DNA of 64,000 bases from the human T2T-CHM13v2.0 reference genome, Homo sapiens. Position 1 is the first letter of the stretch. Every line of letters begins with the position of its first letter. Positions 45,701 to 53,593 of this stretch are shown here, one piece after another. The notes below the pieces were generated by a model that worked only from the letters and a program-made list of their open reading frames with translations, searched no databases and was not told the DNA's origin. A program made the translations under genes and the position numbers. Location of the stretch: NCBI RefSeq assembly GCF_009914755.1, contig NC_060939.1. One strand, written 5' to 3'.

Positions 45701-45999
45701 AAAGGCCTTCCTATTCTTGAGTTAGATAATAAAAATTTCTCCTCCAAAATTTATGATTCTTTTAGATAGATTTTTAGCAGCAAAATTATTACGTGAAATA
45801 AAATGACTCTTTTGACTATCAAAAATTGGTTCCAAAGTATTGTATCAGTATTAGAGTTTATTTCTAGTTGGATTTCCTCCTTTGAAAATTGTCTTTTGGG
45901 AACTTTGTCAGTTTAACCTACATGAGTTTTAGCTTTTTTCTCTCCTATTTGTGCGAAATCCTTAAAGCCTAAAGATGATGGCCCTCTGCAATATTAAAA

Positions 46000-46824
46000 A
46001 GTTTTATTTATTTATTTGTTTATTTTTATTTTTTATTTTTCCGTAAGTTATTGGGGTATAGGTGGTATTTGGTTACATGAGTAAGTTGTTTAGTGATGAT
46101 CTGTGAGATTCTGGTGCACCCATCACCCGGGCTGTATATACTGCACCATATTTGTAATATTTGTAGTTTATCCCTCTCTCCTCTCCCACTCTTCCACACA
46201 AGTCCCCAAAGTCCACTGTATCATTCTTATGCTTTGTGTCCTCAAAACTCAGAATCAGTGAGAACATATGATGTTTGGTTTTCCGTTCCTGAGTTACTTC
46301 ACTTAGAATAATAGTCTCCAATCTCATCTAGGTCGATGCAAATGCTGTTAATTCATCCCTTTTTATGGCTGCATAGTATTATCACAGTTTCTTTATCCAC
46401 TCGTTGATTGATGGGCATTTCGGTTGGTTCCACAACTTTGCTATTGTAAATTGTGCCACTATAAACATGCACGTGCAAGTATCTTTTTTGAATAACGACT
46501 TCTTTTCTTCTAGGTAGATACCCAGTAGTGGGATTGCTGGATCAAATGGCTGTTCTACTTGTAGTTCTTTAAGGAATCTCCACACTGTTTTCCATAGTGG
46601 CTATACTAGATTACAATCCCACCAGCAGTGTAGAAGTGTTCCCTGTTCACAGCATCCATGCCAACATCTACTGTCTTTTGATTTTTTGATTACGGCCATT
46701 CTTGCAGGAGTAAGGTGGTACCACACTGTGGTTTTTATTTGAGTTTCCCTGGTCATTAGTGATGTTGAGCATTTTTTCATGTTTGTTGGCCATTTGTATG
46801 TTTTTTTTTGAGAATTGTCTATTC
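46000..46824 (-). mobile_element. L1PB1-type 3' end with decayed poly(A)
   Basis: CCGTAAGTTATTGGGGTATAGGTGGTATTTGGTTACATGAG is the L1PB 3' UTR; ORF2 C-terminal peptides WRFLKEL...[10 protein letters not shown]. Confidence 0.9.
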
Positions 46825-49800
46825 TTTTGTTGTGTCTCTGCCAGGCTTTGGGATCAGGATGATCCTGTATTCATACAATGAGTTAGGGAGGATTCCCTCT
46901 TTTTCTATTGATTGGAATAGTTTCAGAAGGAATGGTACCAGCTCCTCTTTGTACCTCTGGTAGAATTTGGCTGTGAATCCATCTGGTCCTGGACTTTTTT
47001 TGGTTGGTAAGCTATTAATTATTGCCTCAATTTCAGAGCCTGTTATTGGTCTATTCAGAGATTCAACTTCTTCCTGGTTTAGTCTTGGGAGGGTCTCTGT
47101 GTCTAGGAATTTATCCATTTCTTCTAGATTTTCTAGTTTATTTGCATAGAGGCATTTATAGTATTCTCTGATGGTAGTTTGTATTTCTGTGGGATCGGTG
47201 GTGATATCCCCTTTATCATTTTTTATTGCATCTATTTGATTCTTCTCTCTTTTCTTCTTTATTAGTCTTGCTAGCAGTCTATCAATTTTGTTGATCTTTT
47301 CCAAAAACCAGCTCCTGGATTCATTGATTTTTTGAAGGGTTTTTTGTGTCTCTATTTCCTTCAGTTCTGCTCTGATCTTAGTTATTTCTTGCCTTCTGCT
47401 AGCTTTTGAATTTGTTTGCTCTTGCTTCTCTAGTTCTTTTGTAATGTTAGGGTGTCGATTTTAGATCCTTTCTGCTTTCTCTTGTGGGCATTTAGTGCTA
47501 TAAATTTCCCTCTACACACTGCTTTAAATGTGTCCCAGAGATTCTGGTAAGTTGTGTCTTTGTTCTCATTGGTTTCAAAGAACATCTTTATTTCTACCTT
47601 CATGTTGTTATTTACCCAGTAGTCATTCAGGAGCAGGTTATTCAGTGTCCATGTAGTTGTGTGGTTTTGAAATAGTTTCTTAATCCTGAGTTCTAACTTG
47701 ATTGCACTGAGGTCTGAGAGACAGTTTGTTGTGATTTCTGTTCTTTTTCATTTGCTGAGGAGTGCTTTACTTCCAAGTATGTGGTCAATTTTAGAATAAA
47801 TGTGATGTGGTGCTGAGAAGAATGTATATTCTGTTGATTTTGGGTGGAGAGCTCTGTAGATGTCTATTATGTCCGCTTGGTCCAGAACTGAGTTCAATTC
47901 CTGGATATCCTTGTTAACTTTCTGTCTCGTTGATCTGTCTAATGTTGACAGTGGGGTGTTAAAGTCTCCCATTATTATTGTGTGGGAGTCTAAGTCTCTT
48001 TGTAGGTCTCTAAGGACTTGCTTTATGAATCTGGGTGCTCCTGTATTGGGTGCATATATATTTAGGATAATTAGCTCTTCTTGTTGAATTGATCCCTTTA
48101 CCATTACGTAATGGCCTTCTTTGTCTCTTTTGATCTTTGTTGGTTTAAAGTCTGTTTTATCAGAGACTAGGATTGCAACCCCTGCTTTTTTTTTGCTTTC
48201 CATTTGCTTGGTAGATCTTCCTCCATCCCTTTATTTTGAGCCTATGTGTGTCTCTGCATGTGAAATGGGTTTCCTGAATACAGCACACTGATGGGTCTTG
48301 ACTCTTTACCCAATTTGCCAGTCTGTGTCTTTTAATTGTGGCATTTAGCCCACTTACATTTAAGGTTAATATTGTTATTTGTGAATTTGATCCTATCATT
48401 ATGATGTCAGCTGGTTATTTTGCCCTTTAATTGTTGCAGTTTCTTCATAGCATCCATGGTCTTTACGGTTTGGCATGTTTTTGCAGTGGCTGGTACCGGT
48501 TGTTCCTTTCCATGTTTAGTGCTTCCTTCAGGAGCTCTTGTAAGGCAGGCCTGGTGGTGACAAAATCTCTCAACATTTGCTTGTCTGTAAAGGATTTTTA
48601 TTTCTCCTTCACTTATGAAGATTAGTTTGGCTGGATATGAAATTCTGGGTTGAAAATTCTTTTCTTTAAGAATGTTGAATATTGGCCCCCACTCTCTTCT
48701 GGCTTGTAAGGTTTCTGCTGAGAGATCAGCTGTTAGTCTGATGGGCTTCCCTTTGTGGGTAACCTGACCTTTCTCTCTGGCTGCCCTTACCATTTTTTCC
48801 TTCATTTCAACCTTGTGAATCTGAAAATTATGTGTCTTGGGGTTGCTCTTCTCAAGGACTATCTTTGTGGTGTTCTCTGTATTTCCTGAATTTGAATGTC
48901 AGCCTGCCTTGCTAGGTTGAGGAAGTTCTCCTGGATAATATCCTGAAGAGTGTTTTTCAACTTGGTTGCATTCTCTCCATCACTTTCAGGTACACAAATC
49001 AAATGTAGATTTGGTCTTTTCATATACTCCCATATTTCTTGGAGGCTTTGTTTCCTTTTACTCTTTTTTCTCTAAACTTGTCGTTTCGCTTTATTTCATT
49101 AATTTGATCTTCAATCACTGATATCCTTTCTTCCACTTGATCAAATTGGCTATTGAAGCTTGTGCATGCATCACGAACTTCTCGTACCATGGTTTTCAGC
49201 TCCATCAGGTCATTTAAGTTATTCCCTACGCTGTTTATTCTAGTTAGCCATTCGTCTACCCCTTTTTCAAGGTTTTTAGCTTCCTTGTGATGGGTTAGAA
49301 CATGCTCCTTTAGCTTGGAGAAGTTTGTTATTACTGACCTTCTGAAGTCTGCTTCTGACAACTTGTCAGTCATTCTCTATCCAGCTTTGTCCTGTTGCTG
49401 GCAAGGGACTGTGATCCTTTGGAGAAGAGGCACTCTGATTTTTAGAATTTTCAGGTTTTCTGCTCTGGTTTCTCCCCATCTTTGTGGTTTTGTTTATCTT
49501 TGGTCTTTGATATTGGTGACCTACAGATGGGGTTTTGGTGTGGATGTCCTTTTTCTTGATGTTGATGCTATTCCTTTCTGTTTGTTAGTTTTCCTTCTAA
49601 CCGTCAGGTCACTCAGCTGCAGGTCTGTTGGAGTTTGCTGGAGGTCAACTCCAGACACTGTTTGCTCGGGTATCACCAGCGGAGGCTGCAGAAGAGCAAA
49701 TATTGCAGAACAGCAAATATTGCTGCCTGATCCTTCCTCTGGGAGCTTCATCTCAGAGGGGCACCCACCCATATGAGGTGTCTGTCAGCCCCTACTGGGA

Positions 49801-50516
49801 GGTATCTCCCAGTTAGGCTACACAGGGGTCAGGGACCCACTTGAAGAGGCAGTCTGTCCATTCTCAGAGCTCAAACGCTGTGCTGGGGGAACCATTGCTG
49901 TCTTCAGAGCTGTCAGACAGGGACGTTTAAGTCTGCAGAAGTTTCTGCTGCCTTTTGTTCAGCTGCCCTGCCCACAGAGGTGGAGTCTATAGAGGCAGTA
50001 GGCCTTGTTGAGCTGTGGTGGGCTCCACCCAGTTCGAGCTTCCTGGCTACTTTGTTTACCTACTCAAGCCTCAGCCATGGTGGATGCCCCTCTCCCTGTC
50101 AGGCTGCTGCCTCACAAGTCAATCTCAGACTGCTGTGCTAGCAGTGAGCGAGGCTCCTCGGGCATGGGACCTGTGGAGTCAGGCACAGGAGAGAATCTCC
50201 TAGTCTGCCAGTTGCTAAGACCATAGGAAAAGCGCAGTATTTGGGCAGGAGTGTCCCATTTTTCCAGGTACAGTCTGTCACGGCTTCCCTTGGCTAGGAA
50301 AGGGAAATCCCCCGACCCCTTGCGCTTCCCGGGTGAGGTAACGCACCTCCCTGCTTTGGATCACCTTCTGTGGGCTGCACCCTCTGTCCAACCAGTCCCA
50401 ATGAGATGAACCAGATACCTCAGTTGGAAATGCAGAAATCACCCATCTTCTGTGTTGATCATGCTGGGAGCTGCAGATTGGAGCTGTTCCTATTCGGCCA
50501 TCTTGGAATGGACCCC
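46825..50516 (-). mobile_element. L1PA (about L1PA5-7) 5' half: 5' UTR, ORF1, ORF2 endonuclease region; disrupted
   Basis: 5' end reads CCAAGATGGCCGAATAGGAACAGCTCC on the minus strand. ORF1 fragments (KEKMVRAAREKGQVTHKGKPIRLTADLS) and ORF2 fragments ([16 protein letters not shown]), ending at [12 protein letters not shown]. Confidence 0.93.
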
Positions 50517-53015: not shown

Positions 53016-53070
53016 CAACCACCACTCAATCTTTTATAAGTTTTGTTGCAGTGAGTCAGATTTGGAAAGT

Positions 53071-53262
53071 TGTCTTAGACCACTGGAACTGCTATAACAA
53101 AATACCATAAACTGGGTAGTTTATAACCAACAGAAATTTATTTCTCACAGTTTTGGAGGCTGGGAAGTCCAAGATGAAGACTCAGGCAGAATGGGTATCT
53201 GGTGAGGGCCTGCTTCCTGTACAGTGGTCTGTCTTTTCACTATAACATAAGATGGAAGAAGC
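53071..53262 (-). mobile_element. MLT1A LTR 3' part (R/U5-equivalent only)
   Basis: TGTCTTAG...GCTATAACAAAATACCATAAACTGGG...GGTGAGGGCCTGCTTCCT; truncated at 53262. Confidence 0.8.
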
Positions 53263-53593
53263 CCCTCTGCAATATTTACTGCAGATATTTTCCTAAGGCT
53301 TTTGGGAATTTTCTTGACATATGGAACTTTTCACTTTTATGAAATCAAGTCTACCTTCTTTTGTGACTTTCTTAGTCATTTTATTTCCATATTTATTAAG
53401 TGCATATGATGTGGCAGACATTGTGGTGGATTTAAATATAAGTAACATACTGCCTCTGCCTCCATGAGCTCGCAATCTGTATGAAGATATAATGGCATAG
53501 AAAATTTCAGCATAGTGGGTTGGGGGCCTTCCACTTCTGAAATTATGGTGGGCTAGGTACTCCAGGGAACCTTTGACTGCGGAACAGTGAAAG

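What the first reader, a model, noticed from the sequence alone, without database searches (positions are those of the whole stretch)
45982..53276. 7.3-kb L1 insertion apparently transcribed from an upstream MLT1A LTR promoter (5' transduction)
CCCTCTGCAATATT occurs at 45982-45995, next to the L1 tail, and again at 53263-53276, about 250 bp beyond the L1PB 5' end. The TSD therefore encloses a ~55-bp spacer and a same-strand MLT1A fragment (53071-53262). That fragment lacks the upstream half of the LTR and starts roughly 25-30 nt after where the LTR TATA box lies (compare the intact copy near 9139-9185), which is the expected start site. One extra G (minus strand, 53262) sits at the junction, as seen when a cap is reverse-transcribed. 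Inference: this is a fossil of an LTR-driven L1 source element active in the germline.
Basis: partly seen in the sequence, partly recalled or inferred. Interest (0 to 1): 0.7.

Follow-up and report, generated by a model that had tools for sequence, protein, structure and literature searches.

The report
LINE-1 copy carrying an LTR transcript
An old LINE-1 jumping-gene copy on chromosome 15 carries at its front 236 bases copied from a retroviral-type repeat on chromosome 3, likely because that repeat's promoter once drove a now-vanished LINE-1 in an ancestral primate germline; this appears to be a new example of a known, rare process.

Summary
Observation confirmed; interpretation mostly supported, with two corrections. 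The 14-mer occurs exactly twice, flanking the insertion. Window 53261-53026 is a copy of one locus, chr3:125,515,782-125,515,544 (217 of 231 aligned bases identical, unique flank included), in intron 1 of a CpG-island gene (recalled as SLC49A4). That donor holds the whole LTR, with TATAAAA 33 nt upstream of the copy's first base, and has C where the copy has G. So the RNA likely began at the LTR start site.

Correction 1: the donor has no L1 today and no siblings were found. The source L1 is inferred (a polymorphic allele, later lost); RNA-level joining remains possible.

Correction 2: the 7.3 kb is not one L1. It is an L1PB-type 5' UTR, an inverted ORF2 piece, a younger L1PA-type 5' half and an L1PB-type 3' end, likely from a nested insertion followed by deletion and inversion.

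Upstream-promoter 5' transduction is known; I found no LTR-initiated case, or this locus, in my searches.

The parts
45982..45995 (.). Target-site duplication, copy next to the L1 tail
   Evidence: exact match
45996..46045 (-). Decayed A-rich tail, with a T5 run next to the TSD; inner end approximate
   Evidence: sequence
46046..46824 (-). L1PB-type ORF2 end and 3' UTR (piece D; positions 5770-6577 of a chrX copy, alignment runs into the tail)
   Evidence: 12-14% mismatch to that copy over three 250-nt blocks
46825..50518 (-). Younger L1PA-type element: intact 5' end, 5' UTR, ORF1 and the ORF2 endonuclease part; 3' half missing; frames broken
   Evidence: 24-32% mismatch to the L1PB-type copy, 7-9% to 2 copies of its own family; Pfam Exo_endo_phos at 47751-48230; 5' end matches many genomic copies
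50519..52105 (+). Inverted L1PB-type ORF2 piece C (positions 4123-5759), reverse-transcriptase region
   Evidence: Pfam RVT_1 at 50615-51049
52106..53016 (-). L1PB-type 5' UTR, first ~930 positions, with native 5' end
53017..53025 (-). 9 nt of unassigned origin, likely extra bases at the 5' junction of the source L1
   Evidence: absent from the donor and from 29 of 29 other L1PB-type 5' ends; no other exact junction in the genome
53026..53070 (-). Unique flank copied from the chr3 donor, downstream of its LTR
   Evidence: 2 of 2 genome hits are self and chr3; alignment
53071..53261 (-). 3' half of a MaLR (MLT1A-type, recalled) LTR copied from chr3; starts 33 nt after the donor TATA; keeps the splice-donor-like site and AATAAA unspliced
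53262..53262 (-). Single G not in the donor (donor has C), likely cap-derived
53263..53276 (.). Target-site duplication, copy at the 5' end
   Evidence: exact match

Best explanation
A single L1 insertion on chromosome 15 carries 236 bases copied from an LTR on chromosome 3, likely because a capped RNA began at that LTR's promoter and read through into a full-length L1PB that likely sat just downstream and was later lost. SHOWN: TSD around the whole unit; unique donor; direction chr3 to chr15; start 33 nt after TATAAAA; G absent from the donor; no splicing; donor now empty. INFERRED: (1) an L1PB inserted 53 nt past the LTR, at an endonuclease-like T|AAAA site, as a polymorphic allele antisense in intron 1 of SLC49A4 (name recalled); (2) the LTR fired in the germline and the RNA passed the LTR's own splice donor and poly(A) signal; (3) target-primed reverse transcription copied it to the cap; (4) the source allele was lost, perhaps by selection, 0.8 kb from exon 1 of a two-gene CpG island; (5) later an L1PA inserted antisense into ORF2 at TT|AAGA, creating long inverted repeats, and a deletion-inversion removed about 3.2 kb of L1PB plus the L1PA 3' half and flipped the rest. 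Step 5 about 65% likely on its own.
For: Donor: 313 bits against 170 for the next LTR copy; 217 of 231 aligned bases identical, flank included. TATA at -33 in the donor; TATAA lies at -27 to -33 of the same position in 13 of 24 alignable other copies, 28 examined. A random 5' end would hit a 7-nt start window in about 2% of cases (my estimate, 7 of ~365 positions). An untemplated G is described as a cap signature (PMC9341517, passages). The L1 5' end is intact. The donor breakpoint is 10 nt after T|AAAA, background 2-4% (pattern chosen after seeing the donor). No GT and no poly(A) at the donor breakpoint. Branch lengths fit: 10-13 of 231 changes on the copy against half of 9-10% between L1PB-type ORF2 copies. 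Missing sources are common among such chimeras (PMC13174262, passages). For step 5: C ends 10 positions before D begins, the L1PA piece ends 36-39 positions before C begins in homologous coordinates, and the L1PA is younger (6.6-8.2% pairwise).
Against: No L1 at the donor. No sibling: 0 of 29 L1PB-type 5' ends; 9 one-mismatch pattern hits against 10 control hits. The last 7 nt of the TSD (CAGAGGG) also occur in the donor 12 nt upstream of the junction, chance about 0.24%, which suits a microhomology join. The -1/+1 bases are C/C, not pyrimidine/purine, and -33 is at the edge of the usual range (recalled). The chr15 site reads TA|AATA, not TT|AAAA. Copy-donor distance (6.5%, 95% CI 3.7-10.5%) is lower than L1PB pairwise distances and fits only with a slow donor (10 vs 2 polarised changes, p=0.04; p=0.30 if all 3 unresolved sites fall on the donor). 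This LTR is not listed among human oocyte LTR transcripts (PMC6102241 supplements).
Confidence: 0.6

Rival explanations
1. RNA-level chimera: the LTR-initiated RNA and a full-length L1PB RNA from elsewhere were joined by template jumping or ligation, and no L1 ever sat at the chr3 locus.
For: Donor is empty with no L1 trace; single event, no siblings; 9 unassigned nt at the join; recombination of two RNAs is proposed for source-less L1 chimeras (10.1101/2025.02.02.635956 section 24).
Against: Jumping or ligation needs an RNA 3' end at the breakpoint, which has no poly(A) and lies inside unique flank. No splice donor there, so trans-splicing does not apply. An endonuclease-like site sits at TSD distance. 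U6-type chimeras usually have 5'-truncated L1, whereas this 5' end is intact.
Confidence: 0.25
2. DNA-templated capture or a longer RNA: the cDNA end copied chr3 sequence and joined the target by the 7-nt CAGAGGG microhomology; a later 12-nt loss makes it look like a start site.
For: 7-nt match 12 nt upstream of the junction, chance about 0.24%; an 8-nt indel exists elsewhere in the piece; templated inserts under 250 bp are described (10.1101/2024.08.27.596794, passages).
Against: Needs a second, exactly placed deletion plus a new G, and the junction still falls at TATA+33. The templated inserts described come from within 15 bp of the target, not another chromosome.
Confidence: 0.1
3. The LTR fragment was at the chr15 site before the L1, and the 14-mer is chance.
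For: MaLR fragments are abundant (4,720 first-look candidates).
Against: The fragment plus non-LTR flank matches one chr3 locus at 94% while other LTR copies differ by about 18%; it has no TSD or tail of its own; exact 14-mer chance is 0.2% at most.
Confidence: 0.02
4. For the interior only: the inversion arose at birth by a twin-priming variant, the L1PA then inserted in sense, and a deletion removed its 3' half.
For: C and D tile with a 10-position gap, typical of twin priming; switching variants are described.
Against: The inverted piece does not abut the 5' TSD; a forward 5' UTR and a cap-like G precede it; the later deletion would have to end exactly at the start of D.
Confidence: 0.3

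Closest known systems
L1 5' transduction from an upstream promoter (8q21.11 L1HS source; PMC12350158, passages)
   Same: An external promoter drives an RNA that runs into L1; the copy carries upstream sequence inside the TSD.
   Different: There the promoter is a lncRNA gene's, the RNA is spliced, the source is present and 22 copies are known. Here it is a solo MaLR LTR, unspliced, source absent, one ancient copy.
RAP1GDS1-L1PA2 promoter co-option and the 17 mRNA/lncRNA-L1 5' chimeras (Law and Burns; 10.1101/2025.02.02.635956, PMC13174262)
   Same: Fixed old insertions, near full-length L1, sense 5' piece from a transcript start, source often missing; one L1PB1 case (CREM).
   Different: Those 5' pieces are gene exons, often ending at splice donors. 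Searches of the 6 supplementary files for the donor gene names, MLT1A, the TSD and the expected hg38 position found no row for this locus.
U6/L1-type chimeric retrocopies
   Same: Non-L1 RNA fused 5' of L1 within one TSD.
   Different: Partner is not a small RNA, and the L1 is not 5'-truncated.
MaLR LTR-initiated transcripts of oocytes (PMC5538554, PMC6102241)
   Same: Solo LTR used as promoter; MLT1A terms occur 35 times in the human oocyte table.
   Different: Those often use the LTR splice donor; here it is kept unspliced and the RNA was retrotransposed. This LTR is not in the table.
Twin-priming L1 inversion
   Same: Inverted and forward pieces tile within 10 positions.
   Different: Inverted piece is internal, and a second L1 family sits at the junction.

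Membership tests
L1 5' transduction | One TSD encloses the extra sequence and the L1 | tested here: met
L1 5' transduction | Poly(A) tail at the 3' end | tested here: met
   decayed A-rich tail 45996-46045
L1 5' transduction | Extra 5' sequence maps in sense to one other locus | tested here: met
L1 5' transduction | L1 5' end intact | tested here: met
L1 5' transduction | Source L1 directly downstream at the donor locus | tested here: not met
   none in 5.8 kb of this genome; so it is filed as working like a 5' transduction, not as a proven one
L1 5' transduction | 5' end coincides with a real transcription start | tested here: inconclusive
   TATA at -33 and extra G fit; C/C start and 7-nt microhomology do not; no CAGE data
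L1 5' transduction | Empty orthologous target site in outgroups | not testable with these tools
   no other mammal genome held; flanks have no paralogue
U6-type L1 chimera | Small-RNA partner and 5'-truncated L1 | tested here: not met
Spliced or trans-spliced exon-L1 chimera | 5' piece ends at a splice donor | tested here: not met
   donor continues ACAG; LTR splice-donor-like site retained
Classical twin-priming inversion | Inverted piece abuts the 5' TSD | tested here: not met
MLT1A / L1PB / L1PA subfamilies | Best match to the named consensus | not testable with these tools
   no repeat library; names recalled; only the two-family split was tested

The most novel reading that the evidence does not exclude
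A long-dead solo MLT1 LTR beside the SLC49A4/HSPBAP1 CpG island was a working, constrained germline promoter in early simians and drove a vanished L1PB allele. The chr15 copy is then a base-exact fossil of its capped RNA, and 'TSD + G + TATA-plus-30 LTR half + intact L1' could be mined genome-wide to map ancient germline LTR promoters and extinct source alleles.
Probability: 0.35. Interest if true: 0.62.

Novelty: new variant of a known kind. Interest (0 to 1): 0.43.

Why it matters
It would show one class of retroelement (a retroviral-type LTR) supplying the promoter for another (L1) in the primate germline, the raw step behind L1's repeated recruitment of new 5' ends. It would also date germline activity of one specific LTR tens of millions of years back and point to an L1 allele that no longer exists. 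As a single, broken, intergenic copy it has no likely function today.

Tried and rejected
Siblings: none by DNA search of the junction, the whole piece (40 of 4,720 candidates scored, so a lower bound), the spacer pattern, the L1 join or the donor's downstream flank. L1 remnant or leftover direct repeat at the donor: none. Paralogous empty site: both flanks unique. Second TSD for the inner L1PA: longest shared word 6 nt, as expected if its 3' half is gone. The best-matching L1PB copy (chr12) was useless as a ruler because it has its own deletion; a chrX copy was used. Evidence that this LTR is active in human oocytes or testis: no human DIRC2, SLC49A4 or HSPBAP1 row in supplements of PMC6102241 (7 files), PMC6908575 (file 8 not searched), PMC5538554 (file 1 not searched) or PMC3836709 (7 of 19 files not searched; HSPBAP1 was searched only in PMC6102241 and PMC5538554); only mouse rows with other LTRs. 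The coordinate search used a recalled assembly offset. PMC10620060 and PMC9252281 gave nothing decisive. Pfam did not name the donor exon.
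Full report
CHECK. The 14-mer occurs at 45982-45995 and 53263-53276 and nowhere else in the window at up to 2 mismatches. One copy abuts the A-rich tail, the other the LTR fragment. Random stretch pairs from the window share an exact 14-mer in 406 of 200,000 draws, repeats included. The TSD is real. The target reads TA|AATA on the L1 strand, AT-rich but not the canonical site.

DONOR. 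A genome search with 53005-53085 gave 2 matches, self and chr3:125,515,544-125,515,611. With 52960-53290 the chr3 locus scored 313 bits against 170 for the next LTR copy (40 of 4,720 candidates scored). Window 53261-53026 aligns to chr3:125,515,782-125,515,544 with 217 matches, 14 mismatches and 4 small indels. The match covers the LTR 3' half and the non-LTR flank. The donor holds the whole LTR, with an Alu in its 5' part flanked by a 17-nt repeat. It lies about 0.8-1.4 kb into intron 1, antisense, of a CpG-island gene whose first exon resembles FLVCR1/2; I recall it as SLC49A4 (DIRC2). A head-to-head reading frame about 2.9 kb downstream of the LTR start, on the LTR strand, I recall as HSPBAP1.

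5' END. The donor has TATAAAA starting 33 nt upstream of the copy's first matching base. TATAA lies at -27 to -33 in 13 of 24 other copies that aligned there (28 examined, 4 unaligned, 10 without the motif, 1 at -47). The copy has G where the donor has C; an untemplated G is described as a mark of cap reverse transcription (PMC9341517, passages). Against: the start is C/C, and the TSD's last 7 nt also occur in the donor 12 nt upstream (chance 0.24%). Capture by that microhomology needs a further exact deletion and a new G, so I give it about 10%. The LTR's splice-donor-like site and AATAAA are present in both copy and donor, so the RNA was neither spliced nor cut there. MaLR LTRs carry promoter, start, splice donor and poly(A) site (PMC5538554, passages).

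3' END AND MISSING SOURCE. After the shared flank the copy has 9 unassigned bases, then a native L1PB-type 5' end. The donor continues in unique sequence with no L1 trace in 5.8 kb (best E 0.12) and no GT. A T|AAAA site lies 10 nt before the breakpoint, where a TSD would begin; background 1.8-3.9%, pattern chosen after the fact. None of 29 other L1PB-type 5' ends carries the piece (29 of the 40 non-self matches were fetched), and pattern searches found no sibling above control level. The simplest reading is a polymorphic source later lost; an RNA-level join cannot be excluded.

AGE. Copy and donor differ at 14-15 of 231 sites (6.5%, CI 3.7-10.5%). Using 28 other LTR copies as outgroups, 10 changes fall on the copy, 2 on the donor and 3 are unresolved (p=0.04, or 0.30 in the worst case). 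The donor is closer to the other copies in 20 of 28. The copy's branch (4.3-5.6%) matches half the distance between L1PB-type ORF2 pieces (9-10% non-CpG in 3 comparisons; piece D gave 10-13%). The donor may be slow or constrained; this is suggestive only. An age near or before the simian radiation rests on recalled rates.

INTERIOR. Against a 6.6-kb chrX copy the pieces are: 53016-52108 = positions 1-934; 50519-52105 = 4123-5759, inverted; 46824-46023 = 5770-6577; positions 935-4122 are missing. Between them, 50518-46825 is another family: 24-32% from the chrX copy and 7-9% from two copies of its own kind. It has an intact 5' end beside a TT|AAGA site and stops 36-39 positions before the homologous start of the inverted piece. 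An antisense insertion into ORF2 makes long inverted repeats whose stem begins at that point; one deletion-inversion then gives the observed order. A birth inversion is the rival. Both are inferred. All frames are broken.

KNOWN WORK. 49 of 497 polymorphic L1 transductions are 5' (10.1101/2024.04.18.590093, section 24). The 8q21.11 source uses an upstream lncRNA promoter with splicing (PMC12350158, passages); the concept is reviewed in PMC6035798 (passages). Law and Burns list 17 fixed mRNA/lncRNA-L1 chimeras and the RAP1GDS1 co-option (preprint sections 20, 24, 25; journal passages). Searches of their 6 supplementary files found no row for this locus (the hg38 position was estimated from recall). 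MLT1 and THE1 give most MaLR starts in human oocytes (PMC6102241, passages), but this LTR was not found in the tables. Full-text searches (seen as listings) showed no LTR-initiated L1 5' transduction. The library lacks many subscription papers, bioRxiv supplements are closed, and several supplementary files were not searched.

VERDICT. A real insertion with a traced donor. LTR-initiated RNA about 85%; read-through into a lost source 60%. New variant of a known kind; interest 0.43.

Noticed in passing
L002:1546-2084 (G000:C3:125,515,589-125,516,127): The donor LTR points across the CpG island shared by two head-to-head genes (recalled SLC49A4 and HSPBAP1), keeps a perfect TATA, and shows fewer changes than its copy (2 vs 10); a possible alternative promoter.
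   Followed up: partly
L035, L052, L056 (5' ends of L1PB-type copies): Several copies share a 5' leader GGATTCAGGGG before the usual start; a pattern search gave 11 hits against 2 control hits, suggesting a sub-lineage with its own short 5' extension.
   Followed up: partly
L034/L063 (G000:C12:63,437,313 onward): The closest L1PB-type relative has its own internal deletion between the endonuclease region and late ORF2.
   Followed up: no
window 8998-9440: MaLR LTR longer than the donor type, with extra internal sequence and no intact TATA at the matching place; a poor comparator for the start site.
   Followed up: partly
window 45229-45276: 24-nt tandem duplication, 96% identical, left of the insertion.
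   Followed up: no
L002 locus, mouse orthologue: Mouse Dirc2 and Hspbap1 have unrelated MT-family LTR transcripts in oocytes or embryos, so the locus may favour LTR promoters.
   Followed up: no
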